64,000 bases of DNA from Amphiscolops sp. MND2022 (taxonomy: Eukaryota), in contig OZ076409.1 of assembly GCA_964187785.1 (NCBI GenBank), positions 65,908,001 to 65,972,000 on the forward strand, given 5' to 3'. This document shows, piece by piece, positions 611-62,511 of the stretch (position 1 is its first letter; each line of letters starts with the position of its first letter). Position numbers and translations under genes: made by a program. The notes under the pieces are model-generated. The model saw only the letters and a program-made list of their open reading frames with translations. It made no database searches and was not told where the DNA came from.

Positions 611-2902
611 CGTTTTTTTTCCTTTGGATAAGACCACAATATGTATACGAACAGAGTTTTTGTTCAGGCCGCCAGTTTGTTCATTGAGCCTTAAGCAGGG
701 CACCGACTTCAGACTTTAGACAATAAACTCTGCTAGTGTTAGAATGCGAATATTTTCCGATGCATCTTAGAAAATCGTTGGTTCTAAAATGGAACCATTG
801 ACGAGATTTGATTGGCCTTCAAAGAAAGGTATGCAAAAATATTAAAGGAAAAGTATGTAGGAGCATATGAATTCATTTAAATTGTTAAATGACCATGCCT
901 TGAGAAAACAATCAACTAAAGAATGTGTATTGCCTTCGTCTTTTAAACTGTTTGAAAAAACCTTGGATATAGAATTGTTTGATGCTTGTTTGTAGCGCTT
1001 ATAATCTCTCTCTAAACGTTCTCTTTTGATTCATGCAGCGTTTTTGTTCAAGTTGCATTAATGTTTCTTTCATCTGACACTCGAGAGATCCTCCTTTTTT
1101 GCTTCAATGAAATCGAGAAACGTTTAACTCACTATTCTATTTGATTGACATTAAGATAAATATAGCCAATAAATATCACAAACGCACAGCTCTTGAATTT
1201 ATGAGTTCCAATACTTGAGTTTGTTGAACAAAGCAGGAGAAATTTTCAAACCTCATTGAAAAATAAATTGAACCTTGCTCGTCAAATAGATACTGACAGG
1301 GGAAAAAGTTTTCATTTGAATACGTTATCTCTGACTTAGAGCATACGCTTAATTCTGAAGCATTCAGAAACGAAACATCACCTTCAGTTGAGCCAATAAA
1401 TTCCACGAAGAAATTTTTAGTTTTTTTAAAACAAAAATAAAATCATGCGTTTCACGTAATTGTGTACGTGACGCATCGATTGAAGTGATGAAATAGGAGT
1501 CTTGTTTAATAAAACATTCAATTTGAATCCAGATTACCGACTTGCTTAATTTACTGATGGAAAATCAAAAATGAAATTTGACTTAATCTTGAGGTTAAAT
1601 CGAAAGTTTGCTTTGGATTTTCCATCAGTATATTTTGATCAGTTCCATGATAGTGGTAATGTTGATTTTTGAAATGAAACAAATGAGATTTCGTTTTTGC
1701 AACGCAAACTTCACTGAGCAACTAATGCGTGTTGGTTTCACCTTTTGTGAACTAGTGAATTGACGAAACTACGCCTACTATACTGTTACAACTATTGCCA
1801 ATGTAATTTTTCAAGTTGCAAGTTGCTATGTGTACCTAAGTTTCTTTTCTAATAGCCTCCGCGACACTTTTTTTTCGCAAATTTCAATCACTGCATTAGC
1901 ATGATACAATCGATAGATGCATTTTCATACATGCAATCGCAACAACCTTGTACGTAGTGGAAAACCAAGAAAAGAGTAATTGAGTACTTATATTCCCGAC
2001 ACTTCACCAAAAATTCTCAAACTAAATTTCCCCACTCATTATTTCTGGAAGACAGCAAAACAACTCTCTCAAACGGTGTTTTCTCAAATTAATTTTGCAA
2101 TAGTCTACTTTCAGAGTCAAAGAAGAAAGTTTCTTCCACAGATCTCAACGACAAAACGTAAAGATTTGAGCATAATTATTTGTGAAGACACATTAAATTT
2201 TTTGAAAAAAGTGCTAACATGTAAAGTGTTAAAAAGGGCCAAAAAACGTTTTAGAAATTTGCAAAGGTCGGACAAAAGAAAACCACGATCGAGCATAGAA
2301 ACGTGAACAAAGAAATACAAAGACTGAGAAATGCCATAATCTGTTTGAGAATGATAGCAAAGTTTCATTTCGTCAGTACGGAGTTAAATTGGTGCTTTTC
2401 GCGCGATTAACCGGAAGATCAACATCATAATGTTTTCTATGCTTTTCGGTCTATGTGTTATTTTGTGACAGTATTGAGATGCATACATCTTTTCTCCATG
2501 AATTTGTTTTTGCTCTGTTATTTACCCTCGTGTTTTTCTGACATAATTTTCTACCGAAACTAACTGCCGAGTACCACGAACTTTTCTACCCGTTCTGAAA
2601 GGCTACTTAAAAGTTGAATTTGTTGGCTTATTGCGCGTTGTTTGTAGCAATTACAGACCGGAGAGTACATTGGAGGACGGCTTCGAAACATCTCACCTTA
2701 GGGATTTTTTCGGGCACTGCGCGTTAGGCATTCAGTGTCTGTAACTGCTGGACAAAACTGATCCCCTGGATGTTCTAGTTTTACGCTAAAAACGATCCGG
2801 TGCTCAATGGGCGTCGTTTCATCATAGGGGAGTGTATTCAAGGGTATCTTTCTACATTTCAGTTTTATATATTTTCTTCGATTTTTCGTATTTATTTTAT
2901 CG

Positions 2903-3619
2903 ATTACCAGAAATTTCGTCGTCGGAAATTTCGTCGTCAGAAATTTCGTCGTCGGAAATTTCGTCGTCGGAAATTTCGTCGTCGGAAATTTCGTCGTCGG
3001 AAATTTCGTCGTCGGAAATTTCGTCGTCGGTGATTACGTTCTGTAAAACGTCGCATTATCTTTAATCTATTAGGAATCGTCTTATTATTGAGTCTTAATA
3101 ATTATCGATAATTGTGCAATAATTACTATCATTGACTACTTTTTGTTATGGTTTTGAGAAAAAAAGTTCCTTATAACTCCCCATATACACCTTGTTTGTT
3201 ATCCCCCCGACACGAAGTTGTTTCGACACTTGAAGCAAAAATTTCCATTACCAGAGGATTTTTTGATAATTTTCTGACAAAAAAGTAAAAATTCCTCCTG
3301 GAGCAAGCTTGAATTGTATTGTAAAGGACCCGGTAAATAGTTCCACCGGTAGGACTGAAAATATACCATTGCTTAATAAGCGTCTTGATGAGTCGATTGA
3401 ATGCAATTAACTTTTTGACTCAATTTTGGTGTCAAAATGAAACTTGTTCTTAAGATCTCATTTTAATAATTAAGTAATTGTATAATTCAAATGATATCTT
3501 CTGGTGAACGCTGTTATTCTAATCAATACGACGAAATTTCTGACGACGAAATTTCTGGATTTGCTGATACGACGAAATTTCTTACGACGAAATTTCTGGC
3601 GACGAAATTTCCGCCTCCC
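2903..3619. mobile_element. Fold-back MITE with 15-bp tandem subterminal repeats, possibly Mutator/Foldback-like
   Basis: About 8 copies of GAAATTTCGTCGTCG at 2910-3029 and inverted copies (ACGACGAAATTTC) at 3528-3611. Right end is ...GAAATTTCCGCCTCCC. Direct repeat ATTTTATCG(A) at 2894-2903 and 3620-3629 is a likely 9-10-bp TSD. The left terminus is degraded. Confidence 0.7.
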
Positions 3620-7331: not shown

Positions 7332-7821
7332 AACAAGACGAGACGTCTAACGTTGGCGCTATATCTAAGGCTCAAAAAGCGCAAAACATTTTTCCGGAAA
7401 AAAACTTGAAATTTTTGAATTTTTTTCTCGGAAAATGTATAGTGCCGAAAAATGTGAAAGGGACCCTTTTGGATTCATTAACATACATTGTGCTGCAAAA
7501 TATCAAAAAACTCGAAGGGGGACCCTTTGGGGTCATTGAAAAATTTTCGAAAAAAAAGTCGCACAAGCCGAGAAAAATCGAAAGGACCCTTTAGTTTCGT
7601 CCAGTTTTGTAGGTTACGTTAAAAAAGTAAAAAAAGAAGGGGTGACCCCTTTGCACTAATTTCCGCTGACCGGACTTGGCCTTATGGTAGTAGTTTTAGT
7701 AGTTTCGATTGTAAGAAAAGTGGCCCAATCAGAGTGAGATAGTAGTCTGACGAAAAAAAAGAAAAAAAACTAGCCACTGTAAGAGTCGGGCACTTTTCAA
7801 TAGAAAAGCGCCGACTAAAAA
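7332..7821 (-). mobile_element. HINE family A, full-length copy
   Basis: Plus strand starts AACAAGACGAGACGTCTAACGTTGGCGC (hairpin plus subTIR). It ends AGTCGGGCAC...GAAAAGCGCCGACTAAAAA (short inverted repeat, subTIR, A/T run). No TSD. Confidence 0.85.
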
Positions 7822-8803
7822 GACATCATTGCACAAACTTGAATATATGTTCGATTACGAGGTTCTTGTGAAGCCGAGGTTTTGCCTGGCCAACTGAAAG
7901 AGTTGACGCTGACAACACAACTGCCGAGAAGGTGCATGAAAAATCCCACATACAATGAAACATAAAAATAATTCCACAAAAAGTAATATATTGTAACTTC
8001 AATCTGTCACCTCTGGTAGATATTGAGGAATGCATAGTATGTGTATTTGACCGGGACAGGCGTCCATGTCCATCAATCCATTTTGCCTCCTTAGGGCACA
8101 AACTGCCCCGTCACAGGAGGATTTCGCTTCTTTGCAGTACTCGACGGCTTACTCCAGTCTTTAATTGCTGTCAGTAACATGAATTACGCTGCTGTTTCTT
8201 TGGACTACCGCTTAGACAGCCTTCAAAAATCGAAGGTATATTGGTGCCAAAGGTAAATTTCTTCCGGGAACAAATCATTATGAAATAGTAGCTCACGAGC
8301 TACACAAGCGCCGTAAGCTTGCTTAGGCTAATTGACTCAATTAGGTGATCACTATCGTATGTATCAATTTGCTAACAAAAGCGCCTAGTTTTGCAGAGAG
8401 TTTGTTTTGGCGTAATTAGCAGTTTTGCTACTGAGTCGTCTCATATCGATTCTGTGTCTTCCTTTGATTTCTTCTCCGTCTGGGTATGAATATGGTGGTG
8501 AAATGTGCTTCTTTTTGAAGACAGGTCTTTTTGAAGACACGGTTTTGATTAGCAGCAACTGACTGAAAGTCGCGATATCTAGTTGTGAACGAGTTTTTCA
8601 TTTGTGGCAGGTGATCGTTACATATCTTTGACTTCGAGGTCTTGTAAAATCGTTATCAGAACCATCATTCACACTGATGCAAAGACACAATTTTACAAAC
8701 AAATGAATGCATGTTCGATGAATGTATGTAAGATAAGGCCTGAAATCACTATCCCAAGGTATGGGATCTGAAGTCACTACTTTCGGGTGGAATAATAGAT
8801 AAT

Positions 8804-9230
8804 AACAAGATGAGAACGTCTCAAGTCGGCGCTATATCTAAGGCTCAAAAAGCGCAATACATTTTTGTTGGAAAAAAACTTTTGATTTTTTTCCTTACGA
8901 AAAATGTCGCATAGTGTCGAAAAATGTAGAAGGGGGCGCTTTTGGATTTATTAACATACATTCTGTTGCAAAATATCAAAAAACTCGAAAGGGGGACCCT
9001 TTGGGGACATTAAAATTTTTTTTAAAAAAAAGTCGCTCAGTGCCGAAAAAATCCAAAGGGGGGACCCTTTAGGCACAGAATGCATGGTAATTATAGTAGG
9101 GACATGATCATGCATGTAAATGCATGTGAATCTGTACCATGGAAAGTAGCGGTATGAAGCGATATAAACAACCGAACAAAAAGGTTAGCTTGCAATCCCG
9201 CATGCAAAAAAGACTACACCTTAAAGCAGT
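8804..9230 (-). mobile_element. HINE family A copy, 3' part joined to an unrelated cassette
   Basis: AACAAGATGAGAACGTCTCAAGTCGGCGCTATATCTAAGGCTCAAAAAGCGC at 8804. Family core runs to ~9070, then a CATG-rich cassette also present at 7255-7307. Canonical 5' end not found. Confidence 0.7.
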
Positions 9231-12244: not shown

Positions 12245-13693
12245 TTTAACACACTTGAAATTTTATCAAGCTTTCGGTCATTTCCTTGAAGCAGCCAATT
12301 TAATCAACTTAGGGGTCATTCAAAAATGTACCCTCCAAATTTTATTTTAATTAAACCGTTTTGAGCTGAGCTTACACTTCTGACCGAAACAGTTATTTTG
12401 AACGAATTGTTTTTTTTGAGTCGGTTTTGAAATCAGATGGATTTTTACCACTTATATAGAATTGATGCACACATACATGAAAGAACCACACATTGAGAAA
12501 ATTCATGCTGAACAAAAGCAACTTTTCCAAGCTTTCAATTTTTTTCGCAGTATGCTTAAATTCGAATTATTGACATGAGATCAACGATTAAAAGGCAACC
12601 ATGGAACCAATTACGATCGAACCAAATTTTCGGATAACCTACTGAGACATTTTTAACCCGATCTGTTTCTGATTTAGGACCATGTTCATGCTCATTTAGA
12701 TGAGGCGAATAATGAATACTCAAATGAACATTTATAAGGATTGCTCGAAAACGAGTAGAAAGTTCATTAGAATCGTGCGAGAGTTTCTAGATGGATCGTT
12801 AAGTTGACAAAGTAAATGAAGCTAGAATTTTAAACGAGAAAGTTTGTTTGAAAAAAACTTGAAAACCCGAAATTTTAAAGAGTTCCGAAGCCAAAAGTTG
12901 CAATGAAATGGCTACTAACAGAATGGTCAAACACCAATTTCCTAAGCACTCAAGACGCCAACTGAGCACAGTTTTCCGATCTCAACTAATTCAGCAGCTA
13001 GATATGTTTAAAGGTCGAGCATAGACAAACAACTTGAGCCGGGAAAGCTCATTTGAGGCACTTTTTCACGCGTCAGATTTTGTTTTCTCTTTGTATGCCA
13101 AGAAGCGGAGTACTTTAACAATACCTTCTGAGACATAATGATGGTCATTGTAATAAAATTGTTTCAGAATTTCTAATCCGACGATTGATGAGGCACTCGA
13201 GCATGTCATTGCTTTTCTTGCAATTCTGCCATTTGCAGAATGAAAAAAAATGAAACGAGCAGAGAACACAGAGGAAAAGTGTGGAGAAAAATATTTAAAA
13301 GCACACTCAATAAACAGGTCCTAATCACACCTTGAATGCAGTACATTGAAGAATTGAGATATTTCAACTAAGCGCTACATTATGTAGTGAAGAGTGTAGA
13401 AAAGAGTTTGATACCTTAATCGTGGTATTTCGATGCATGGAGACCCAGCTTTTGAGCTACGTGGCTACCCCTGAGGTGTTTTGTGGTACTTTGGCATGCA
13501 GTTATTGTTGGTGAGCTACTATTTGGCTTTTACGCATTACCCCCTGGGCCGAAAAGTATGGTCGATTGGTTACAACGATTAGTTACAACGAGAATCGAGC
13601 TCTAATAGAGTGAAGAAAGAGCTCATTACTAACAATAAACTGAATCATCCGATTGTATAACAGTTTCTTGAAGACCTGATTCACATTTCGTCG

Positions 13694-14263
13694 TCACCTG
13701 CTGTAAGGACTAACGTCCGAATGTTCTCTCAGGTCACAAGCGGACCTTGAGTCCTTCTTCGTCAATCTTGTATTTGTGTTCTCCCATGCGCTTCTGACTC
13801 CATCCTCATTTAAGGACGTACCCGGCTCAATGCCATGTTGACCCAAAGGCAAATTTTCTACAATATTCTGTATTTCCGGAATAATTCTCTCACTTATAGC
13901 AGAACTAATGGCCCTGGTAATCTGTGATTGCATTAGGTCCATCATAGCCTCCATCTCGCGCGACATCCTAGCGTTCATTTCACCAGATAGCGTATTGATA
14001 GACTCTATCAGTCTACTTTCCCTAACGGGTTCATTTCTACTATCGATGTCTCTAATCTCATTTTCTTGAGATGAATTTTCTCTGTTCGGAAAGGACTGAA
14101 AGTCTCGTTGTCCCTCAGGGACGTTAATCAAGCTATCAAGTTCTCTTTCTATAGAGTTGGAACTTCTCCCACCTAGCATCACGTCCATGTTGCCGTAGTC
14201 GGACAACATATCTAATTCTCTAGAGTTTCTAGACTTGGCCTTTTGTCTCCTCGTAGAAGGCAT
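13694..14263 (-). CDS. Intact 189-aa ORF inside the solo LTR, probably the N-terminus of a Gag-like protein (MPSTRRQKAKSRNSRELDMLSD...)
   Basis: ATG at 14263. No stop for 187 codons up to the LTR end at 13702; the stop TGA (13694-13696) lies in the flank beyond the TSD. Basic N-terminus and an amphipathic helical segment (RLIESINTLSGEMNARMSREMEAMMDLMQSQITRAISSAISERIIPEIQNIV). Gag assignment is inference. Confidence 0.65.
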   Translation of the reverse strand: MPSTRRQKAKSRNSRELDMLSDYGNMDVMLGGRSSNSIERELDSLINVPEGQRDFQSFPNRENSSQENEIRDIDSRNEPVRESRLIESINTLSGEMNARMSREMEAMMDLMQSQITRAISSAISERIIPEIQNIVENLPLGQHGIEPGTSLNEDGVRSAWENTNTRLTKKDSRSACDLREHSDVSPYSR

Positions 14264-15336
14264 TGAAAATGTTATTCCAAGAGAAAATATTTGAATTGTT
14301 CCTGTGGACAAGTATTTCTATTTTCAGAATAATCAAGATGAGCGTAGTGTATCAGGTAGCTGCAAAATTATGATTAACCTTTGTCGGGCCGACTTGGGTA
14401 TATATACCCCAGAAGGCATGACAGGCAAAATTGTTACGGTCATGATATTAAAAATAGCAACGCAAACTGAAAATAGATACGTCAGCACTATAAATAGTAA
14501 CATTACGTCACTAGGCATGTTTGGGGTGGCATGATCAAAGTGCCTTGCGAGGCCGTGGCGGGACATGCCGTTTGCATGGCTGAAAAGGTTTACATGTTTG
14601 AATCAACACTACATGTATACATAATCCATATGGACCTACATGGCCGATTGCCATGAGGGGCATTCTACATTCATGAGGATTAAATGATGAAACTGCATTT
14701 ACTAAGAAAGCGCCGTGTATCCATCATCTAATTACGGTTATATGTATGTAGCAACATTTCATGTTCAACAGACCAACATTTCATGTACAATTTCAGATAA
14801 CACTCAATGTGTCGATAGGCAGTGAAAGGCCTCACTTAAAATAATAGCAACAGGTATTCTACCGGTATATAGCAACTGGTATGTAGTAATTCTAACAATT
14901 GGACCACTTAACTCGCAAGCCGAGTCCGTCCTTATTTTGCTTGTACAGTTATCAACAAACAAAGCATAGCATCAAACAAAGCAGGCCGGTCTAATCACGT
15001 GGCCGGACTGGTCCTTTCTTGAGTAATTATATAGTTAGCAACTATGAGTGAATGAGTGAAATTAGCACGGCTGTTATTGGTCAATTTGCCGTACGCGGCC
15101 ATATTAGCTATACTGAACAGGCAGCCACTTGAACACGTTTCCTTTCTGCCTGTCAGTATAACTTGCTGTCAAATATTACCACAATAAACTAAAATAACTT
15201 TACATGTATTGAATGGATTAACATTGAGTTTTAATCAACAAATAAAGTTTGTGAAATAGTTTATATTGGAATTGTTCCGGGTAGGGCAATCGGCATAGTG
15301 TGGTCAATCGTATAAAGGTTGCCATCGCCTGCGACA
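13702..15336 (-). mobile_element. Solo LTR, 1,635 bp
   Basis: Bounded by TGTAAGG (13702) and GCGACA (15336), with a perfect 5-bp TSD CCTGC at 13697-13701 and 15337-15341. No second copy, PBS or pol adjacent. Orientation inferred from the internal ORF. Confidence 0.85.
14399..14406 (-). promoter_or_regulatory. Candidate LTR TATA box
   Basis: TATATATA about 135 bp upstream of the ORF ATG within the solo LTR. Positional inference only. Confidence 0.3.
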
Positions 15337-16403
15337 CCTGCCCAAGATACAATCATTGCTCAAAAACAAATGAATCCATCATTTTTTCCGAAGATTAGCA
15401 TACTGCTTGATGTTTTTACAACGATATAACAAAACAGAATTGAACTTTTTGAAAGTTTTCAAAATCTTTTTCTGCATAATCTTATATGCAAAACCGTCGA
15501 TTAATGTTCAATTTTTGAAATCTGGTGGAAATACCAGATTAAATTGAATGCTGGGTTATCTTCCAAGAAAAATTTTCCTGAAGTTTTGTCATTAACTTTG
15601 AGTAGATTTTTTTTGAAACTCAGAAGATTGACGTATTTGGAGCGTTTTCTTTCGGTTTACCGGACTACCAAACTTATAGCGTGAAAAACTGGATAACGAT
15701 TGAATAAACATGCCAGTTCCGAAAACAACGATGACAATTAAGACTTTCAACATTTGAAAAAGAATTCTTGGTGTAAAGACCTCGTAAGATTTCCTCTCAA
15801 AAACTTCTAACGTGGAATTCATTACCCAAATATCCAAAGATATTCATCAAAAGATGCCCATACAAATGCCGAATTTTCCTATAACTCTTCCTTCTTTTTT
15901 TTGAAGGAAGAATATTTTGGTTTTCCGTGTAAAAAGGAGTTTTTCAATGCAATTATGCATGCAAAAACGTCTTGAAATGGCCTTGTGTCATACTAACGTC
16001 ATTTGGTAAGAAACTTGATAAAAACTTCGTTTGGCCTTGCAGGAGTGGTAAAAAAAGATTTGAAAATTGGTAGACTACTTAACTCAATTTCAAGCTGTCA
16101 AGTTACGGCTCTTTGAACAGAGCGTGAAGTCCCTCAAGAGACTTTAAACAGTGACTTCTCTAAGCTAATGAGCTGTCACTTTGGTTGATTGAGTCCAAGA
16201 TCTTTCCTTTATATCATCTGACGTTGATTTAGGAAGCAAAGAAAGTTTGTGAAGTTAAAGTAATTATTCTAGGCACAACACCCTTCCGCTACTTCGTCAC
16301 TGTAATTCATCTCGGAATGATCCAACGGGCAACGAAGATTTTATTTTCTTAAAAGAATGCAAAACTGGAGGCTTTAAATTTGTCCCAAAGTTTATTTTTA
16401 AAA

Positions 16404-17000
16404 AACAAGCCGGGAACGGCATAAAATAGCAAAAGGACTTCAAAGCGCCAAGTATTCTCTTCCACATTATCTGAAAAACCCAAAAGGGGGCCGAACTGTT
16501 TTTTGCGCGAAGTCCTCCTCTTTTGTGGAACGCAACCTACTCGGATATAACGTCAAAAATTCGGATAGTATTGATGAAAGTTCTTTGGTGGAAATTTATT
16601 GAAAAAACCTACTTTCAAACAAAAAACGAGAATTTTGAAGCAGTCTCATAGTGCCGAAAAATGTAAAAGGGGGAACCTTTCATATCTTTTAACATTCATT
16701 CGTTGGCAAAATATCAGACAATTGAAGGGGGACCTTTTGGAGACATTAAAAAATGTTCAAAAAAAGTATCACAGAGCCAAAAAAATGGTGGGGACCCTTT
16801 GGTCTGGTCCGGTTTTCGATGTCACGCTAAAGAAGGAACGGTACAACTAATATAGTCCAGTTCCTTGGGCCAAATGGTATAATTTGGCCTCTTAAAATTT
16901 TGTAGAACTTTTGATAGAAGTATTTTGGTCAGTTCGTGTGGATTAAAAAAAGCGTCACTATTATAGTCGCGTTTCACGCCATGAAGCGCCGACTAAAAAA
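16404..17000 (-). mobile_element. HINE family A variant with 3' subTIR deleted
   Basis: Starts AACAAGCCGGGAACGGC (hairpin variant) but lacks the adjacent AGTCGGCGC. Core motifs AGTGCCGAAAAATGTAAAAGGGGG present. Ends AGTCGCG...GAAGCGCCGACTAAAAAA. Confidence 0.75.
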
Positions 17001-17706
17001 ACGATTCTTCAGCTTCTAGTCAAGTTTTTAATAATGAATTTGAAAAAAAACAACAGAAAAGTTGCAAAAACATGTTAAAACAAACCCCCATTTGAAAGGT
17101 ATTGAATTTTTGACAAGGGCTAGAATCATTTCATAAGCCCGAGAAATCGAAACAAAAATTCCAAAGAAACTTCACATGAAGGTAAAGACATCGGCGTTGC
17201 TGAAATATTTCAAACTCTTCGTATCCTGTATGTGCTTGAGATTTTAGTGAGGACATAACAACAATTTTTCCACAATTTCGCGAAAAAGAAAGTTATTTTT
17301 CAAGCTCACAAATCGTTCCGAAATACTATCGATCATTTTTGTTCGAACAGTACTGCAACGACAAGGGCAACGGAGCAACAAGTTTTCGCAATTAATATAA
17401 AATGAGAAAAAAACAAATAACTTTAAACAATTTTCAGTCGGAAATAGTCAATTATTTATTTCGAGCTGAAAAACAACAAAATTTGAATTTTTCAAGCTGA
17501 AAACAAAAAGATTGAATTTATCAGTTGTTAGAGTGCTTCGGTGGGGAAACTAGAACTTTGAATCATCCTTTTCTCTCGAAGTGCAAAAACAATTTACATC
17601 ACCGTGCTTTCTTCGACAAACACTGCTAATCTTGTCGAAACGTTGCGAAACCATCTTTGCTGAAAAGAGGGCCTTTAAACTTGAAAGCATCTTAAGACAA
17701 CATACG

Positions 17707-18171
17707 AACAAGACGAGAACGTCTAAAGTTGGCGCTATATCTAACGCTCGAAAACGCAAAACATTTTTTCGGAAAAAAACTTGAAATTTTTGAAAATTTT
17801 TTCTTTCGGAAAATGTATAGTACCAAAAAATGTGAAAGGGACCCATTTGGATTCATTAACATACATTGTGTTGCAAAATATCAAAATATTCGAAGGGGGA
17901 CCCTTTGGGGTCATTAAAAAAATTTCGAAAGTCGCACGGTGCCAAAAGAAAAACCCTTTAGTCTCGTCCAGTTTTGTAGGTTACGTTAAAAAAGTAAAAA
18001 ATGAAAGCTGGACCCTTTGCACTAATTTTGTCTTTGCCGGATTTGGCCTCAGTGGTTTCACGATTATCTCTAAAAAGTGGATCGATCAGTGTGAGGTCTG
18101 TGGTCTGACGAAAAAAGGCTACTGTAACAGTCGGGCATTTTTCCCTAAAAGGGAAAAGCGCTGACTAAAAA
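17707..18171 (-). mobile_element. HINE family A, full-length copy
   Basis: AACAAGACGAGAACGTCTAAAGTTGGCGC ... AGTCGGGCATTTTTCCC...GGGAAAAGCGCTGACTAAAAA. First ~250 bp closely match the copy at 7332. Confidence 0.85.
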
Positions 18172-23339: not shown

Positions 23340-24232
23340 TTTTTAGTCGGCGCATTTAGAAGAAAATGAGCCCGACTATTACAGTGGCTAGTTTCTTTTT
23401 TTTTCGTCAGATAACAGAATGTATGCGTAGTGGACACTTTTTACAGAACAGAACTACTAAACTAAAGTACTGGATCGGCAAACGGGGAGCGTATTTAAGA
23501 TAATGCAAAGGGTCCCCCCTTTCAGTTACTCCATTTTTATCGTAAGATACAAAACCTGACGAGACAATAGGGTCCCCCCTTTGAGTTTTTATCGGCACTG
23601 TGCGACTTTTTTTTCGAAATTTTTTTTGTCTCCAAAGGGTCCCCCCTTCAATTTTTTGCTGTTTTGCGACAAAATGGATGTTGGAAAATTCCAAAGGGTC
23701 CCCCCTTTCAGTTTTTTCGGCACTGTGAGATTTTTTTTCGAAAATAAAAAAATTTCATCCCTTCAATTTTTTGATGTTTTGCGACTGAATGGTTGGTGAA
23801 AAACCCCAAAAGGTCCCTCCTTTCAGTTTTTTTCGGCACTGTGAGATTTTTTCCTAAAATTATTTTCTCTCCAAAGGGTCCCCCTTCAATTTCTTTGATA
23901 TTTTACAACACATTGGGTGTTTAAAAATCCCAAAGTGTCCCCCTTTCAGTTTTTCGGCATTGTGAGACTTTTTTTCGAAAATTTGTTTTTTCTCCAAAGG
24001 GTTCCTCCTTCAACTGCCACAAAAATGTTGACAATTTCGGAAGTGTCCGTTTTTTAGCGCGCCAGGGGCTCGCGCTAGCGGGGCCCGGCGCGCCACTCAG
24101 TCCATTTTTTTGGTTTTTCGAAAAAAAAGTTCGATAAAATTTTGAAAAAAAATTCGTTTTTTTTTCAAAAAAAGTCTTTTGCGCTTTTTGAGCCTTAGAT
24201 ATGGCGCGGACTTTAGACGTTCTCGTCTTGTT
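23340..24232 (+). mobile_element. HINE family A, long full-length copy with internal tandem repeats
   Basis: Starts TTTTTAGTCGGCGC...GCCCGACT. Contains ~3.5 tandem ~120-bp units (CCAAAGGGTCCCCCC...CGGCACTGTGAGA) at ~23570-24015 and a GC-rich hairpin at 24057-24093. Ends GCGCGGACTTT-AGACG-TTCT-CGTCT-TGTT. Confidence 0.9.
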
Positions 24233-24264
24233 ACTATTTGGGTGTTCTAGTTGACGAATCATCC

Positions 24265-34567: not shown

Positions 34568-35683
34568 TTTTTAGTCGGCGCAATTTACGTTGATCTTTTT
34601 AGTCGGCGCCTTCGCCCTTAAGGAAAAAAGCCCGACTATTACAGTGGGTAGTTTTTTTTCAGTTGACAATCTCACTCTTATTGGTCAATTTTTTTTACAA
34701 TTTTCATGATCCATGAATTTTAGCAATGAATGAATGAATTATTTATTAGTTTGTTACCCGAGGGCGTACAAATTACAAACAATAAAGAAGATGATACTTA
34801 GATAGTACTAGATGTATAAGCTTTACAGGTAATACCGCATAGGGCGGCAAGCCAAATTATAAACAATTGCACAAAAGCTTTCAAGTATTTTCAATTCATC
34901 GAAGAAACTGAACGGGACCAAAGGTTACTTCCTCAGAGTATTTTCGTCTCGGAGACTTTTTTCCAAAGGTTCCCCTCTTCAAATTTCTTGGTGTTTTCCG
35001 ACAGAATTTCCCTTTCATCAAAGGGCAACAGAATGGATGAAATATCTCAGAGTGTCCCCTGGTGCGACAATTCGGGCCAACTTTTGTTTGAGTTTTCCAG
35101 GAACTGTAGAGATTACTTGACACTTTGAAGTCCTTTTGTATGGCACCGACTTGGGCCGTTCCCGGCTTGTTTTTTCTTCAGACCACAGACCTCACATTGA
35201 TCGGTCCACGTTTTACACAAACTACTAAAACTACTCAGGCCGTGTCCGGCCAATGCAAACTTAGTGCAAAGGGTCCTCCCTTTCATAATTTACTTCTTTA
35301 ACGTAACCTACAAAACCGGACGAGACTAAAAATTCTTTCGATTTTTTTTGGTACTGTGCGACTTTTTTCGAATTTTTTTGTCTGCAAAGGGTCCCATCTT
35401 CGAGTTTTTTGATATTTTGCAACAGAATGTATGGTAATAATTCTCAAAGAATCATCTTTTTACATTTTTCGGCACTTCGCGACATTTTCCGAAAGAAAAA
35501 AATCCAGTTTTTTCCAAAAAAAAATGTTTTGTTCCCAGTTGGGGAAAAGTGGTTTACAAGTCTTATCCAGCTTGAAAGGCACCCTTTCTGAGCTTTTCAT
35601 AAACACGTCCTGGGCATATTTTAAAAACTTTGCGCTTTTTGAGCCTTAGATATAGCTCCGACTTTAGACGTTCTCGTCTTGTT
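34568..35683 (+). mobile_element. Nested or mosaic HINE family A cluster with two 5' ends and two 3' ends
   Basis: TTTTTAGTCGGCGC at 34568 and 34596. 3' ends are GCACCGACTTG-GGCCGTTCCCGGCT-TGTT at 35171 and CCGACTTT-AGACGTTCTCGTCT-TGTT at 35683. Confidence 0.8.
34725..34865 (-). mobile_element. Probable 5'-truncated LINE/SINE 3' tail inserted in the HINE cluster
   Basis: Minus strand ends ...AATAAATAATTCATTCATTCATT (polyadenylation signal plus (ATTC)n tail). The segment is absent from the other HINE copies. Confidence 0.5.
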
Positions 35684-36517
35684 GATATAACAGTTCGTTG
35701 GGATATAATGTCGACAACGATATATTTAACTTGTATGCACGCTATTTCTGAGATATGCAAAATGACTCCAGAGACTTTCGAACACCCATAGAAAAATTAT
35801 ATATTCTTTCTTGTCTCAAACTGTCCTATAAAGTCGGAATAAATTGATGACACCTGCAAAATTTTCAAAAAGTTGGTTTGTTACAGGCTTATAATTGGTT
35901 GATCTCAAGGTCGCTTTTTTGGCCCCCGGGGTTTGCCTTTTTGGCGGTGGAAAAAATGTCCCCAGCAGTCATGCAAGTAATTTGCTGAGAAAAAAAACAG
36001 AAGATTAAAAATGGTAAATTCCTTGCTATTAATCCACCCCCGCTGTTTCAATTTTCCCATGCAATTGCCTAGTCAATGGGAGCTGGTTCAACAGTGCAAA
36101 CTTAATTATAAATAAATAGTTAGTGGAATGGTCTCTGTTGAGTGTTCAAATGATCTTATTTCAGCCAAGTAATTTTCAGCACCTGTGTAATTCTGCCTGC
36201 CTGCTATTTGAATACATAGCTGGAAATGGAGGCGTGGATACTTTTTCTGCTATTATTGTATCATGAAAGAAAAAAGAAGAAAGTTTATTTTCCCAATTCC
36301 GCGGGGTGGACGCCGAATAAGCAGTTCTGATTTTCCAAGTCGCCGCCACTCTGTCATAAAGGTCTAACGTATTATGAAGTATTACACTGTAACTATAAAA
36401 GTGAAACATTTCAAGTAATTATATAACTAAAAGAGATATAATATGCGTAAAACTGAAAATTTTACGCATCAATTAAGGAAATTTAATCCATAATTAGCAC
36501 TGGATAATCCCTGAGGG

Positions 36518-36650
36518 TAATCTGTACATATTCGACGAGTTCGCACTCAATTATTATTCGACGAGTTAATTGTCGACCAGTTTTCCGTCCTTTAATTTCG
36601 ACGAATTGTTTTCGACGAGTTGCATTCGGCGAGTTGTTTTCGCCAAATCG
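36518..36650 (+). repeat. One-armed MITE remnant with ~15-bp TTCGACGAGTT repeats
   Basis: Six to seven degenerate TTCGACGAGTT/TTCGGCGAGTT modules. No inverted arm found. Confidence 0.5.
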
Positions 36651-36658
36651 GATTTGAC

Positions 36659-37177
36659 TTTTTTAGTCGGCGCTTTTCGAAGAAAAACGCAGACTATAGA
36701 CGAACTGACAGATTTTATAAATTTTATAAGTTGGCACTAACACTAAACCGGCACTAACACTAAACCGTGTCACACAATTTCACTGCCACTTGGCCACTAC
36801 GGCTTTTTCGAGGTCTGACAAGCAGAAGGACATGGGTTCGAGTCCCGCCATGACCAAAAATTTTTTGTGCAAATTTTTTCTCGGCTTTGTGAGACTTTTT
36901 TCGCAAATGTCTCCAAAGGGTCCCCCTTCATTTTTTTGTCTATTTTGCAAAAAAATGGATGTTAAAAAACTCCCAAAGGGCCCCATTTTACATGTTTCGG
37001 CACTATGCGACTTACGGGTGACCAAAAAAATTTTTGAAAAATTTCAAAAAAAAATCGGAATTTTTTTCAATTTTTCCTCAAACGGGTACTGTAGAAGAGA
37101 AAACTTGACACTTTGAAGTCCTTTTGTTATTTTTGAGCCTTAGATATGGCGCCGACTTGGGCCGTTCCCGGCTTGTT
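36659..37177 (+). mobile_element. HINE family A full-length variant with embedded tRNA-like module
   Basis: 5' TTTTTTAGTCGGCGC; 17-bp tandem GGCACTAACACTAAACC x2 (36733-36766); tRNA-like segment 36790-36856; 3' GCGCCGACTTG-GGCCGTTCCCGGCT-TGTT. Confidence 0.9.
36790..36856 (+). pseudogene. tRNA-like module (T-arm/B-box) inside HINE
   Basis: TCTG-ACAAG-CAGA stem-loop, AGGAC variable loop, ATGGG-TTCGAGT-CCCGC T arm with B-box GGTTCGAGTCC, ending ...GACCA. D arm is degenerate. Confidence 0.55.
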
Positions 37178-40668: not shown

Positions 40669-41534
40669 GCTGGTTGAGAAACATGACTCAAACTCTCAAA
40701 AACTTAGATGAAATTTTGATGAAAAGTTGAGGGGGACCAAAATGGAACCCCCCAAATGGGTTTTCTCTACAGCTGATAAGAGCACGAAACTTGGTACACA
40801 TATGCAGGTACATAACACGAACACCACGGCTAAGTTTCAAGGTCATTCACCCATCAGAACCCCCTTTACCCCTCACATATGTGGTATTCAAGTTCATTGA
40901 GCCAAAAATGTAAACATTGCTATTTACCATTATGACCACTTTGGAAAGTAACTCTGTTGCAATTGATGATATTAACATAGTGTAAACATGTGCCCACCTG
41001 ACCAACATGCCAAGACCACCACATAGTTTTTTTACATAGCTAATAACTTTAATATTTCACTTAAATGTTATTTATTTATACCGAATATTTCAACTGATAT
41101 TTGTTCCATTACCTGCATTTACTGTAGAACTGTGAACCAGATTTATACCATTATTATATAGAGGTTTCACGACTGAAAAACTACAGTCAAGTTGGGTCTT
41201 AGGACCAAGAGACTAATTGATAAACTTCTCAATCTTCACAACATTTCGCTAGAGTTAGAGCGACTAAGTAGCTACTCTCATAGTTGGAAAGGTGGAGCGC
41301 GTGAAGATACAGTGAGGGAAGTGTGTGCAGGATCACATCGGATCCAAATCAGTGCGAAGAGGAATCGCAGGAGATTCCACGGGTCACATCGGACCCACCA
41401 GTCAAAAGATACAGTCCTGTAAACAAGAAAACCAGGATTTGTTTAGTAACGGTCCACAGTACTAAGCAACGGATTAGGGCGGCGTAAAGCTTGTCAAGCC
41501 TCAGCACAGGATAAGGGCAAGCAGCCGTTGCACA
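40669..41534 (+). repeat. 5' LTR of BEL/Pao element, lacking the first ~45 bp
   Basis: About 95% identical by eye to 45807-46673. Ends GCCGTTGCACA directly before the TGG of the PBS. Confidence 0.8.
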
Positions 41535-41551: not shown

Positions 41552-41719
41552 CAGCTCGTTGGTGGACGACACGGACAGAAGAAGAAGACGAGGACGAAGA
41601 CAACTCGTTGGTGGACGACCCGGACAAGAAGAAGACGAGGACGAAGACGTCTCGTTGGTGAACAACTGAGAACATTGCCCAAGAAGAACGAGTGTCTGGA
41701 TCTTGGAGTCTCTGATTTT

Positions 41720-41985
41720 GTGTCTCTGGGTGTTTGGGCTACTGTGTCTCTGGGAGTTTGGGCTACCATGTATCTGGGCGATTGGGCCACTGTGTGTCTT
41801 GGCGATTGTGCCACTGTGTGTCTTGGCGATTTCGTGCCACTGTGTGTATTGGCGATTGTGCCACCGTGTCTCTGGGCGATTGTGCCATTGTGTATCTGGG
41901 CGATTGTGCTACGGTGTATCTGGCATATCTGCCACTGTGTCTCTTGGCGATTGTGCCACTGTGTCTGGGCGATTGTGCCATAGTG
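41720..41985. repeat. 24-bp minisatellite (~10 units) in the BEL element leader
   Basis: Unit ~CTGGGCGATTGTGCCACTGTGTGT. Antisense translation gives TVAQSPR(H/D/Y) repeats. Preceded by a ~48-bp tandem duplication at ~41555-41660. Confidence 0.9.
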
Positions 41986-42632
41986 ACTCTGGAGTTGGGC
42001 TCTTGCGTCTCTGGGAGTTCGGACTATTGAACTCTGGGTGTTTGGGCTATAGTGACTTTGGATAGGGGACTATTGTGTACTCTGGGAATTGGGATTTAGC
42101 GACACTCTGGAGGTATTTGTGCATCAATTCTAGTTTTGAGACGAATTGTTTTCTTTGGAACGTATTCCTGATTGAAGCAATGATTTGGTCTAAGACGTCA
42201 TTGCAAGTAAATTCACCATATAAAGAAAGTGATCAAGTCAGAGGGACAAGGTCCACCGAGCCAATCAAGTTCGTCAACGAAGGCAGGTAAAATCGACAGA
42301 ATTAGGTTGACTCTTCAAGAATTGGCGATTGATTACTGGATTGAGCAGTTGACACTTTGTATCTGAGAAATTGCACAGTTGGGAAAAGTGAAAAAGTCTA
42401 CAAGAAACCATTGCGAAGTTCGAAAGCCCTCAGTGAAATAAAAGAGTCTTCTGAACAAACGAATGCCAAAAAGATAGAAAGGCACGGGATGCAGTATCCT
42501 CGAATGACAAAAGTGTTTGAAGAAGAAAACACAAAGCAGAGCCAATAACTGATGGAGCTCAAACCAAACGATTTGGAAAATGTGTCAGATTGGTACGCTT
42601 GGAGCTTCTGTTAGAGTACTGTACCCCTACAT

Positions 42633-45775: not shown

Positions 45776-46673
45776 TTAGCAGGCAAAGAAACTCGATTTA
45801 AAAGATGCTGGTTGGGAAACATGACTTAAACTCTTGAAAACTTAGATGAAATTTTGATGAAAAAATGAGGGGGTCCAAAATAGAACCCACGAAATGGGGT
45901 TTTCTCTACAACTAATAACCCTAGAAGCACGAAACTGGGTACACATATGCAGGTACATAACACGAACCCCCGGCTAAGATTCAAGGTCATTCACTCATCA
46001 GAACCCCTTTTACCCCTCACATGTGTAGTATTCAAGGTCATTGAGCCAAAAATGTAAACTTTGCTATTTACCATTATGACCACTTTGGATTGTAACTCTG
46101 TTGCAATTGATGATATTTACATAGTGTAAACATGTGCCCACCTGACCAACATGCCAAAACCACCACATAGTTTTTTACATAGCTAATAACTTCAATATTT
46201 CACTTAAATGTTATTTATTTATACCGAATATTTCAACTGAAATTTTTTCCATTACCTCCATTTACTGTAGAACTGTAAACCAGATTTATACCATTATTAT
46301 ATAGAGATTTTCATGACTGAAAAGCTACAGTCAAGTTGGGTCTTAGGACCAAGAGACTAATTGATAAACTTTTCAATCTTCACAACTTTTCGCTAGAGTT
46401 AGAGCGACTAAGTAGCTACTCTCATAGTTGGTAAGGCGGAGCGCGTGAAGATACAGTGAGGGAAGTGTGTGCAGGATCACATCGGATCCAAATCAGTGCG
46501 AAGAGGAATCGCAGGAGATTCCACGGGTCACATCGGACCCACCAGTCAAAAGATACAGTCCTTTAAACAAGAAAACCAGGATTTGTTCAGTAACGGTCCA
46601 CAGTACTAAACAACGAATCAGGGCGGTGTAAAGCTTGTCAAGCCTCAGCGCAGGATAAGGGCAAGAGGCCGTT
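45761..46673 (+). repeat. 3' LTR of BEL/Pao element, lacking the terminal GCACA
   Basis: Starts TGTTGG after the PPT. Homology to the 5' LTR stops at GCCGTT. Confidence 0.8.
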
Positions 46674-49215
46674 AAATTCAGATTGCACTTCGGTTAACCA
46701 AACTGGGGTTCTTGAATTTTTGGGCAATATCACAATCGACTCTCAAAACGAGACCTGTGAACTCTTACAAAAAGTAATCGAGTTACTGAAAAAATCGGAG
46801 AGAACAAAGAACAAATATAATTCTCCTCCCAACACCCTGGAGGGAAAAAATACGCTGCTTAGGCCAGTTAACGGACAAAAAACTCGTTATCATAGGGTGG
46901 TTACCATTCACTCATTCCATTACTGACATATGCTGGCTACAGTCTCATTGTGCGGTAGCCAAGACTTCACAGAGAAGTCATATGATTGCTAAAGCTTGCT
47001 CACCGTGTCAAGAAGCGGGTGGGAGCATTAAACTTGTATCAAGACGAAAACAAACAAGTGAACACTGCAGTGCACAGAAAGTAACCTGACAGAGATAGTT
47101 TTATATTTTGCATGCATGGCTTTTCCAAAATGCGATTATCGCTGGAAGTACTTACTAGATTCAGATCATTTGTATGGGTGGTCAGAAGCAATCTTTTTAA
47201 GGAAACCAACAACGAAAAAGATATAGGATTTCTCAATTTTTTATCTAGCTACACATAGGATACCACAATAATGAGAAAAAAGGATCGTCTAGTATGAACA
47301 ATAAATGAGCGAATGAGAACGAAGAAGCAAATTGTGTTAGAGCGAAATAACTTCGGTTTGTCATAATATCTTTTTGCACTGAGAATGTACTCATCTGCAA
47401 AAGGAAAATCACTGAATGAAAAATGTACAGGCAAGTAACCAAGCACAAGTTAAAAGTTGGTCATTAATCGTAAACGATTCATTTCAGTAACACCAGAGTT
47501 TTCAGTGAACGAGACTGATTTCGAAATCGGACAGGACTCGACTATACTGCTGAGGGAGGGGCCAGAGGAAGTAAACAGTCTACAAGAGAAGAAAGGGGTA
47601 CTACTAGAATAGTCAACAAATCGCCAACACACGTTCCATTAAGATAACACAAAAGCTTAGACTACCTGGTATGAAAAATACATTTTTGTCAAAGGTTTAC
47701 TTCCAATTGGTAGCCTTTGATTTTTGTTGAAATTTTAAATCCAATAAAGGATAATGACTCCCACATTGCAACTTTGTGGTAAATTACGACCGTAATTCCT
47801 ATTTCTTCGAATGATATCATGAAACAAAATGAAAAACAATTTCGAGGTTTTGTGGTGCAAAACTCATTTTGACTCAAATAAAAAGTCAATTTAGATCAGT
47901 GTCAAGCTTCGGTTTGGATTCTAAGTTTTTTCAAGCACTATTAGAGAATTGTTTCCAAATTGAAAAAATTCAAAAAGTATAATTTTTGTTCTTTGGTTCA
48001 CCAAATTATAATCATATTGTTCAAAATGTTGAAATGTTGCGGCATTTGTGTCCGATCACTGCAAAAATCTCTCGAACGCAAAGACTGAAAACCCAAAATT
48101 TTGAATTATCGGTTGTAACTTTCTGCAATTTTTTCGCTGGGATCAATCGAGCCTATCAATTGAATCGTGCAGAATCTAAATATTATGCTTTTTTCAGCTC
48201 AGTTTTAGTTCGTAACTGAAGTTGCAAAATATTCAGGCTAAGTATCTGACAGCTTACCTCTATTTCGATGTTAATTGATTACTCTGCTCTATAGGTGGAT
48301 TTATAAGTAATCCCCGACGGCCAGTTAACCTTTTTGGTGACAATTTGTTCAAGAGAAGCGTAAATTTAATGATGCAATGATTTAAACAAGATTTGACATT
48401 TAGAGAGGTGAACGAAAAAAGATTGAGGTTGAATGAAAAGTACTCTAAAATTTCCCAATAGACCGAATGATTGAATGCTACATTTGGGATTAGCAGTCAA
48501 TTAACACCCAGAAATCAAACACCGGTAAATCAAATCCGGGAATTCGTTTACAGGGAACTCACCCATAAAAACTTGTCTTTTCCAGGGCATATATTACCCT
48601 CGGGAAAGATAACATTTTTAGCCAAGGCGAAAGGGTTCAATTGAGTCACAGATTATATCGCTAAGCTTCAAAACATTAAACAAAGTTCGTTGAGTTGTCA
48701 ATGTTGAGCTCGGGATACTTGAATAAAGGCGCTCTTACCTTGAATAAACGGTAAATCATTGATTTTTGGGGTGCATTTTAGATTTGTCTAAAAATCAGAA
48801 CAATGGTAAGTCGATTTGAACAGAAAAACTAATAACGCTTTTTGGTTCCCTCATTACTATTTCAGGCAATTTTTTCCTCAAACACTAATGGGATGAAACG
48901 GATGAGGCGGCCGATATGAAATCTTTTTGCATGCGAATTAACGTATACTAAAAGAAGTTAAAGGGTTCTCCCTTTAAGTTTTCTAATTTTCACATCCCTT
49001 ACGTAACAAAAAAGTGCAACATATTTCGTTTTTTTTTACTCTGGGCAATTTTAGGGACTGTTTTCAATATATCTCTCCTTTTTATATAGATCCCTTTTTT
49101 TAACATTTTGAGGTGAGAAGAGCCTCTCCCAACCCCAAGGGGCCCTGTGGGTTTTGTTCCCGCACTGTGGGTGTTTTTCAACACTATAATATTCTTGTAA
49201 TCCCAATTTTCACAT

Positions 49216-49435
49216 TGTAGAGCACGTACGAACTCGGACTGTAAAACTAAATAGTCTATGTCTATGCTTTCATCCTATTTGTACTCTATTAGTATTATTA
49301 GTGTTGTCTAAAGATCTGTCTCTGCCACATACGCGTAGAAGAAGCAGCAGCTTAGTGCTACGAAAAGATACGATATAAAACAGTTTATTTGAAACATTGA
49401 ATTCCTTCTTTTACAAGTTGATAAGGAATACAAAA
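49216..49435 (+). repeat. Gypsy 5' LTR, copy 1 (220 bp)
   Basis: CACAT|TGTAG ... GAATACAAAA|TGGCGCAGTC. Equivalent copies at 52617-52836 and 56009-56228. Confidence 0.88.
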
Positions 49436-52400: not shown

Positions 52401-52616
52401 TACGTAACAAAAAAGTGCAAAATATTTCGTTTTTTTTTACTCTGGGCAATTTTAGGGACTGTTTTCAATATATCTCTCCTTTTTATATAGATCCCTTTTT
52501 TTAACATTTTGAGGTGAGAAGAGCCTCTCCCAACCCCGAGGGGCCCTGTGGGTTTTGTTCCCGCACTGTGGGTGTTTTTCAACAATATGATATTCTTGTA
52601 ATTCCAATTTTCACAT

Positions 52617-52836
52617 TGTAGAGGACGTACGAACTCGGACTGTAAAACTAATTAGTCTATGTCTATGCTTTCATCCTATTTGTACTTTATTAGTATTATT
52701 AGTGTTGTCTAAAGATCTGTCTCTGCCACATACGCGTAGAAAAAGCAGCAGCTTAGTGCAACAAAAAGATACGATATAAAATAGTTTATTTGAAACATTG
52801 AGTTCCTTCTTTTACAAGTTGATAAGGAATACAAAA
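52617..52836 (+). repeat. Gypsy 5' LTR, copy 2
   Basis: Same as 49216-49435, with the same CACAT left flank and PBS. Confidence 0.88.
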
Positions 52837-55800: not shown

Positions 55801-56008
55801 CAGAAAAGTGCAAAATATTTCATTTTTTTTTACTCTGGGCAGTTTTAGGGACTGTTTTCAATATATCTCTCCTTTTTATATAGTTCCCTTTTTTAACATT
55901 TTGAGGTGAGAAGAGCCTCTCCCAACCCCAAGGGGCCCTGTGGGATTTGTTCCCGCACTGTGGGTGTTTTTCAACAATATGATAATCTTGTAATTTCAAT
56001 TTTCACAT

Positions 56009-62237: not shown

Positions 62238-62511
62238 GCAAGACGGGAACGTCTAAAGTCGGCGTTATATCTAAGGCTCAAAAAGCGCAGATTTGAAATA
62301 TTCGTAATACGTTTTCATGAAAAACTTCAGTTTTCGAACCTCTGCCTCCTCCTTACAAAAACGCAATACAGTTCTGATGTAACGTCAAAAGTTCGGATAT
62401 AGCGCTTCACTTCGAATATTACGAGGGAGAACTTCAATAAAATATAAGGGGGACCCTTTGAAGACGAAAAAATTTTTCGAAAAACGAGTGACTGTAATAG
62501 TCGACTAAAAA
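62238..62511 (-). mobile_element. Short HINE family A copy with collapsed 5' inverted repeat
   Basis: GCAAGACGGGAACGTCTAAAGTCGGCGTTATATCTAAGGCTCAAAAAGCGC ... ACTGTAATAGTCGACTAAAAA. Confidence 0.8.

What the first reader, a model, noticed from the sequence alone, without database searches (positions are those of the whole stretch)
13694..15341. Solo LTR that carries 187 intact codons and reads out of its own end
Seen: a TG..CA-bounded 1,635-bp segment with a perfect CCTGC TSD contains an ATG-initiated frame (14263) that stays open to the last base of the LTR and stops only 2 codons into the flank. It looks undamaged, whereas every other recognisable retroelement coding region in the window is broken by stops or frameshifts. 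Known: coding inside LTRs is usually limited (yeast Ty1 gag starts a few codons inside the LTR; MMTV sag and HIV nef lie in U3). Inference: in this family a large Gag N-terminal domain (basic head plus helical/coiled-coil segment) lies in R/U5 and continues across the PBS. Every solo or 3' LTR would then be a portable promoter+ATG+domain cassette that makes a truncated Gag, possibly a dominant-negative copy-number control, or fuses to host sequence.
Basis: partly seen in the sequence, partly recalled or inferred. Interest (0 to 1): 0.8.

Follow-up and report, generated by a model that had tools for sequence, protein, structure and literature searches.

The report
Retrotransposon Gag head inside its LTR
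This is the leftover end-repeat of a young jumping gene whose coat-protein gene starts 187 codons inside the repeat, a layout shared by four distant families in this genome; the fragment is conserved only while elements replicate and decays like junk in leftover repeats, so it likely has no selected job there.

Summary
13702-15336 is a solo LTR with a 5-bp TSD, and an ATG at 14263 opens 187 codons to its end. In full-length Ty3/gypsy-order copies the frame crosses the LTR end and the tRNA-Leu PBS into a 567-aa Gag, so a third of Gag is LTR-encoded.

Inherited variants show purifying selection from codon 1 (37 N / 95 S, omega 0.13). After insertion the frame drifts neutrally: 5' versus 3' LTRs omega 1.26, solos 1.26, and 19 of 20 old copies are broken. 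The window copy is open because it is young (about 65-70% expected by chance). A selected solo product is not supported, and the fragment lacks the capsid domain that Ty1 p22 uses.

Three more families (114-189 codons, two with no significant head similarity) keep the same junction phase and PBS. Ty1 is the precedent (about 14 codons). Expression was not testable. The scan reported this layout before in this genome (e1-9174308). The neutral-decay test and the four-family comparison are my own. Verdict: new variant of a known kind.

The parts
13702..15336 (-). Solo LTR (1,635 bp, TG..CA) of a Ty3/gypsy-order retrotransposon
13697..13701 (.). 5-bp target-site duplication, LTR 3' side; supplies most of codons 188-189
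15337..15341 (.). 5-bp target-site duplication, LTR 5' side
13702..14263 (-). First 187 codons (+1 nt) of gag, inside the LTR
   Evidence: 95% identical to residues 1-187 of a 567-aa Gag
13694..13696 (-). Stop codon in host flank that ends the read-out frame (189 aa)
13856..14020 (-). Predicted 55-residue amphipathic helix (Gag 82-136), the best-predicted part of the head
   Evidence: pLDDT about 80 in a full-length Gag model; conserved hydrophobic pattern
14216..14263 (-). Basic head (codons 1-16, net +5); no inherited amino-acid change in codons 1-30
14399..14406 (-). TATA-like box 143 nt upstream of the ATG; candidate core promoter (inferred)
14448..14497 (-). Repeated A/T-core motifs (MEF2-like; label recalled) upstream of the TATA box, at a recombination break among LTR haplotypes
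15261..15336 (-). Remnant of the last ~27 codons of a sense ORF (ORF4) that reads into the 3' LTR of full-length copies; here hit by a private 10-bp deletion

Best explanation
This is a young solo LTR of a Ty3/gypsy-order retrotransposon clade whose gag gene starts inside the LTR and crosses the LTR end and primer-binding site, so each LTR carries the first third of gag, and in solo copies that third is a passenger that decays neutrally and likely does no selected job. Shown: the contiguous 567-aa frame, selection in replicating lineages, neutral decay after insertion, and the same junction in four families. Inferred: transcription starts upstream of the ATG, probably about 30 nt after the TATA box (near 14370). 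The head is then in R/U5, reverse transcription copies it from the RNA 5' end into both new LTRs, and minus-strand strong-stop DNA is at least about 600-700 nt long. LTR-LTR recombination would then leave the solo. The LTR end and PBS are read as protein too (x-M-V-T-G), so tRNA priming and translation would compete on one RNA, as in Ty1. The head itself (basic tip, acidic disordered linker, long helix) most likely works as an assembly or targeting scaffold ahead of the capsid, in the position of the Ty1 prion-like domain; that role is untested (about 0.5).
For: Frame continues into Gag with DUF1759 (E 9e-6) and two CCHC-type motifs, then pol in the order PR-RT-RH-IN. Atlas neighbours are Retrotrans_gag/Ty3_capsid clusters at 0.92-0.93. 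The best solved relative of pol is Ty3. The 12-nt PBS matches the 3' end of host tRNA-Leu(CAG) plus CCA. PPT and 5-bp TSDs match in 31 of 34 pairs. Inherited variants: 37 N / 95 S, omega 0.13, p 3e-30; codons 1-30: 0 N / 16 S. 5' versus 3' LTR in 34 pairs: 104 N / 27 S / 4 stops, omega 1.26; Fisher against inherited p 2e-17. Eleven solos: 27 N / 7 S / 4 stops. Old cohort: 19 of 20 broken, 321 N / 89 S / 22 stops, omega 1.18. Neutral chance that the window frame is still open is about 0.64. Same junction in 9 of 9, 7 of 7 and 5 of 5 LTR pairs of three other families.
Against: The start and end of the transcript are not mapped. The main linkage break among LTR haplotypes lies at LTR 820-870 (window about 14515-14470), about 100 nt upstream of the start predicted from the TATA box, so the U3/R border is unsettled. 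No conserved AATAAA lies downstream of the TATA box. Family 3 had no TATA match within 350 nt in 23 of 23 scored loci. Only 11 young solos were typed, and the loci were ascertained by protein match. Private changes in 5' LTRs are oddly skewed (58 N / 4 S, p 3e-4), which is unexplained. The capsid fold was not confirmed (mean pLDDT 43; no Foldseek match). Neutral decay does not exclude an effect from the constant supply of young solos.
Confidence: 0.85

Rival explanations
1. Solo and 3' LTRs make a truncated Gag head that binds full-length Gag through its helix and damps particle assembly as copy number rises: a self-encoded copy-number control that needs no selection on single solos because young ones are made all the time.
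For: Promoter-like box, first ATG and 187 selected codons are present in most young copies. There are 170 exact matches to the 17-nt LTR end alone. A long amphipathic helix is predicted. Ty1 p22 is self-encoded and constrained through Gag (PMC13709905, passages).
Against: p22/p18 and Drt2 act through the CA-CTD (PMC13709905, passages); this fragment has no capsid part. No sign of selection in any solo or old copy. The clade is very abundant and many copies are young.
Confidence: 0.1
2. This particular solo has been co-opted by the host as a gene or fusion exon.
For: The frame is open and has a candidate promoter.
Against: It is about 0.55% diverged, and its three private coding changes are all non-synonymous. 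It stops two codons out. The left flank is only weakly repetitive sequence, and no host gene was identified near it.
Confidence: 0.02
3. Gag starts mainly at the Met formed by the LTR end and PBS (Met188), and the LTR frame is conserved for another reason or as a minor isoform.
For: A Met stands at the junction in all four families, and several database proteins are called from it.
Against: That ATG is forced by the terminal A plus the PBS start. Amino-acid-level selection runs from codon 1, with synonymous sites free along the head. There is no stop between the two parts.
Confidence: 0.05

Closest known systems
Ty1 of Saccharomyces cerevisiae (Ty1/copia, Pseudoviridae)
   Same: gag starts before the PBS and the PBS is read as gag codons: 5' UTR is nt 1-53 and the PBS nt 95-104 of the RNA, about 14 codons (PMC5454406, passages). 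Ty1 Gag also has a disordered N-terminal region needed for assembly (PMC10372613, passages).
   Different: Here 114-189 codons, a third of Gag with a whole predicted helix, lie in the LTR. The pol order is Ty3/gypsy, the primer is tRNA-Leu, the LTR is 1.5-1.7 kb or longer, and the gag-pol overlap is of -1 type.
Ty3/gypsy LTR retrotransposons (Metaviridae)
   Same: PR-RT-RH-IN order, CCHC Gag, PBS, PPT, 5-bp TSD; Ty3 Gag-Pol is the best solved match.
   Different: gag normally starts after the PBS (recalled). This clade also has a weak dUTPase-like insert, a spliced antisense gene and a sense ORF reading into U3.
Ty1 p22/p18 and Drt2 restriction factors
   Same: Truncated Gag made from element sequence.
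   Different: They are the capsid C-terminal domain, and Drt2 is under purifying selection at a host locus (PMC13709905, passages). This fragment is the pre-capsid head and decays neutrally.
HIV nef and MMTV sag (recalled)
   Same: Protein coding inside an LTR; ORF4 of this clade overlaps U3 in the way nef does.
   Different: They lie in U3 and are separate accessory genes; the frame here is on the R/U5 side and is part of gag.
Plant Retand elements with antisense ORFs (PMC11963269, passages)
   Same: Long pol-3'LTR region with conserved antisense coding.
   Different: Concerns the internal region, not the LTR. The antisense gene here has conserved GT-AG introns; the word intron does not occur in that paper's main text.

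Membership tests
Ty3/gypsy (Metaviridae-type) LTR retrotransposon | Direct TG..CA LTRs with short TSD | tested here: met
   34 pairs, 31 with matching 5-bp TSD; in the other 3 the LTR start was not located correctly
Ty3/gypsy (Metaviridae-type) LTR retrotransposon | PBS complementary to a host tRNA 3' end; PPT before the 3' LTR | tested here: met
   12-nt match to tRNA-Leu(CAG); ARAGORN called a tRNA in 1 of 4 loci checked
Ty3/gypsy (Metaviridae-type) LTR retrotransposon | pol order PR-RT-RH-IN | tested here: met
   best PDB match Ty3 Gag-Pol, E 1e-47
Ty3/gypsy (Metaviridae-type) LTR retrotransposon | Gag with capsid fold and zinc knuckle | tested here: inconclusive
   DUF1759, CCHC motifs, Atlas Retrotrans_gag/Ty3_capsid neighbours; fold model too poor to confirm
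Ty3/gypsy (Metaviridae-type) LTR retrotransposon | RT tree placement in a named clade | not tested
   No named reference set; the 120 listed RT relatives are all unnamed
Solo LTR | One whole LTR between TSDs, no internal sequence, PBS or PPT beside it | tested here: met
Ty1-type gag start inside the LTR | ATG in the LTR, frame open across LTR end and PBS into gag | tested here: met
Ty1/copia | IN before RT | tested here: not met
p22/Drt2-type Gag restriction factor | Contains the capsid C-terminal domain | tested here: not met
   Fragment ends at 187; DUF1759 region starts at 272
p22/Drt2-type Gag restriction factor | Frame kept by purifying selection at a host locus (Drt2) | tested here: not met
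   omega 1.26 in solos, 1.18 in old copies
p22/Drt2-type Gag restriction factor | Expressed and inhibits mobility in trans | not testable with these tools
   Needs RNA, protein and functional data

The most novel reading that the evidence does not exclude
The many young solo and 3' LTRs of this clade are working promoter-ATG-domain cassettes. They pour out capsid-less Gag heads with random tails that poison assembly in step with copy number and seed new host genes. The heads themselves were recruited more than once from U5 sequence upstream of an older start at the LTR/PBS junction, which would explain unrelated heads on one junction.
Probability: 0.12. Interest if true: 0.8.

Novelty: new variant of a known kind. 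Interest (0 to 1): 0.45.

Why it matters
It stretches a layout known from Ty1 (about 14 codons) to 114-189 codons across a whole Ty3/gypsy clade. The integrase end and the primer site become protein-coding, and a long strong-stop DNA is implied. In practice, every solo and 3' LTR yields a spurious gene model with a random tail: 377 such relatives sit in the protein database. Dating by LTR divergence still works, because the frame is neutral after insertion. The same 187 codons can be read under selection (inherited) and without it (post-insertion) in one genome, which gives a built-in control. If solos are translated, the question of LTR-encoded copy-number control becomes directly testable.

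Tried and rejected
RNA: no RNA holder was listed for the LTR, so no reads were laid.

Structure: the full Gag model was low-confidence outside the helix and gave no fold match. The antisense last-exon model was also poor and gave none; the wide fold search was busy and not run. The two-copy prediction for residues 72-142 returned no verdict. Pfam on the 189 aa gave nothing significant, and a Gag profile gave no PDB hit below E 0.07. The Atlas search on the antisense exon gave only leads under 0.9.

Mapping R by linkage found a break but cannot tell R from a recombination hot spot at repeated motifs.

One old copy with an open frame (L115 = L239) looked like a possible domesticated copy. It is the 3' LTR of an old deleted element and differs from its partner by 36 N / 9 S, so I rejected that.

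The deleted-element reading was rejected.

The script crashed after two of six loci. In one search, 8 older copies were not scored because the ATG pattern failed.

Papers: searches for a long gag inside an LTR listed 6, 1, 0, 0, 0 and 11 papers; none describes it by title or abstract start. Two were read in passages (PMC3601003, PMC3485330) without a match, and so was PMC10309623. One search used a host-group guess from memory; I saw the listing only and the guess is untested. Repbase, Dfam, GyDB and subscription journals were not available, and no supplements were read; element descriptions there could hold a precedent.

Full report
1. Observation. The segment 13702-15336 begins TG, ends CA and is flanked by CCTGC on both sides. 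On the minus strand an ATG at 14263 opens 562 nt to the last LTR base. Two further codons come from the duplicated site and the stop is at 13696-13694, giving 189 aa. This is the only stop-to-stop frame over 90 codons overlapping 13000-16500.

2. It is a solo LTR. The genome (1.07 Gb, unnamed) gave 42 matches from 40 scored candidates, most in pairs about 14.1 kb apart. Of 112 distinct LTR copies typed, 44 were 5' (followed by the PBS), 45 were 3' (preceded by a PPT), 11 were solos with a TSD, and 12 were unclassified. Thirty-four pairs were formed, 31 with matching 5-bp TSDs. The window copy is a solo. It has a private 10-bp deletion near its start and 12 private bases, 3 of them alignment artefacts beside the deletion.

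3. The frame is gag. In 5' copies the last LTR base and the first two PBS bases form a Met codon, and the frame goes on to 567 aa. It hits DUF1759 at 272-402 and carries two CCHC-type motifs. pol follows in the order protease, RT, RNase H, integrase, and the best solved relative is Ty3 Gag-Pol. Atlas neighbours of the Gag are Retrotrans_gag, Ty3_capsid and zf-CCHC clusters at 0.92-0.93. The 12-nt PBS is complementary to a host tRNA 3' end; the pattern has 818 matches against 0 for the control, and ARAGORN called tRNA-Leu(CAG) in 1 of 4 loci checked. A slippery heptamer precedes the gag stop.

4. Selection acts in replicating lineages only. Neutral expectations came from 225 substitutions in the non-coding part of LTR pairs: 72% non-synonymous, 24% synonymous, 4% stop. 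Codon states shared by both LTRs of at least two elements give 37 N / 95 S, omega 0.13, with 0 N / 16 S in codons 1-30 and the weakest constraint at 141-165 (omega 0.49). Pairwise omega in 7 non-independent within-family pairs is 0.06-0.38 for the LTR part and 0.04-0.13 for capsid plus nucleocapsid.

After insertion the picture reverses. The two LTRs of one element differ by 104 N / 27 S / 4 stops, omega 1.26. Private changes are 27 / 7 / 4 in 11 solos and 70 / 20 / 1 in 45 3' LTRs; 5' LTRs give 58 / 4 / 4, a skew I cannot explain. These sets leave out 8 copies under 80% identity and one duplicated locus. In 20 older copies (70-89% identical to the query), 19 have stops, frameshifts or a lost ATG. 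The one open frame is the query, chosen for being open, and private changes total 321 / 89 / 22. At the window copy's divergence a neutral frame stays open with probability about 0.64. Read-out tails of 56 solo and 3' copies average 15 codons, a little shorter than the 21 of random window frames; I did not pursue that.

5. The layout is clade-wide. A sister family (head 43% identical) has 181 or 183 codons plus 1 nt in the LTR in 9 of 9 pairs. A third has 189 plus 1 nt in 7 of 7 pairs, and a fourth has 114 plus 1 nt in 5 of 5 pairs. All four have the same PBS. The heads of families 3 and 4 show no significant similarity to the window's (E 0.17 and no hit), yet all 8 heads compared have a basic tip and an acidic body. 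Among 147 newly listed representative proteins, 17 internal MVTG-like motifs in 16 proteins are all preceded by Y, H, N or D, the four residues that a codon ending at the LTR terminus can encode.

6. Promoter and borders. A TATA-like box lies 134-161 nt before the ATG in 16 of 16 scored LTRs of families 1 and 2, with no upstream ATG within 115 nt in 14 of 16. Family 4 has one at about 260 nt in 4 of 5, and family 3 has none within 350 nt. Linkage among 64 LTR haplotypes breaks at LTR 820-870, upstream of that box. That may be the U3/R border or a hot spot at repeated motifs. Either way the ATG lies downstream, so the head is in R/U5 (inference). No conserved canonical poly(A) signal was found downstream.

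7. The protein. AlphaFold predicts one confident helix, residues 82-136 (pLDDT about 80), within a mostly low-confidence model. The hydrophobic pattern of the helix is conserved in a 48-sequence alignment. By position the head parallels the Ty1 N-terminal prion-like region, which is needed for particle assembly (PMC10372613, passages). A scaffold role is my inference.

8. Mechanism. Established retroelement biology (recalled): R-U5 is copied from the RNA 5' end into both new LTRs, and LTR-LTR recombination leaves solos. That explains all the data: selection seen only in inherited variants, identical open heads in both LTRs at insertion, and neutral decay afterwards. The dominant-negative idea is weakened because known Gag restriction factors act through the capsid C-terminal domain and Drt2 shows purifying selection (PMC13709905, passages; PMC7055915, passages). 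It is not excluded, because young solos are continually produced.

9. Known and new. Ty1 starts gag about 14 codons before its PBS (PMC5454406, passages). Six searches found no paper on a gag head of this length inside an LTR; curated repeat databases were not available. The scan's own notes hold the same reading for this family elsewhere in the genome (e1-9174308), the antisense gene (e1-8580076, e1-8580077, e1-8580099, e1-8590810), and LTR-internal gag starts in other genomes (e1-9578924, e1-7177626, e1-8073826). These are unchecked notes and were seen only after my main tests.

10. Verdict. A real and unusual architecture, and a new variant of a known kind. The solo itself is an ordinary young remnant. 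Interest 0.45; the cassette reading has probability about 0.12 and would deserve 0.8.

Noticed in passing
L044:511-4597 (minus strand) and matching regions of L032-L050, L176-L192: [quoted passage not shown] It has a zinc-finger-like motif and looks hAT-transposase-like by eye; my searches did not confirm that. The scan noted it before.
   Followed up: partly
L044:5606-6493: Sense ORF4 (about 295 codons, no Pfam hit) is conserved at 50-58% across lineages (omega about 0.2 in informative pairs). It reads through the PPT and about 27 codons into the 3' LTR, so both LTR ends overlap coding frames.
   Followed up: partly
L044:4555-5626: About 1.1 kb between the antisense gene and ORF4 with a GC-rich and CCAAT-like patch; possibly an internal two-way promoter.
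   Followed up: no
L043:4215-4604: Weak dUTPase-like insert between protease and RT (Pfam E 0.003, below cut-off; PDB E 0.09, all five hits dUTPases).
   Followed up: partly
L043:3262-3276: gag and pol overlap by a few codons with a slippery heptamer just before the gag stop, kept in the sister family; likely -1 frameshift.
   Followed up: partly
G000:C8:35.59-35.65 Mb: Long tandem array (about 300-bp spacing) of the tRNA-Leu 3'-end pattern; 818 matches genome-wide.
   Followed up: no
5' LTR set: Private changes in 5' LTRs are 58 N / 4 S against 70 / 20 in 3' LTRs. Perhaps silent changes in active 5' LTRs pass to daughters and stop being private.
   Followed up: no
P0316: A distant Gag with two junction-like motifs (positions 189 and 224), perhaps a duplicated LTR end/PBS.
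   Followed up: no
window 48576-58676: Three tandem copies of a 3.4-kb unit, 95-99% alike, with broken gag-like frames; Pfam found nothing.
   Followed up: partly
window 40824-41464 and 45968-46608; 41695-42061; 2880-3059: A direct repeat 5,144 bp apart, a 24-bp minisatellite and a 15-bp tandem repeat.
   Followed up: no
window 7343-9070, 16642-18116, 23340-24237, 35170-37012, 62239-62294: Many dispersed copies of an inverted-repeat element family.
   Followed up: no
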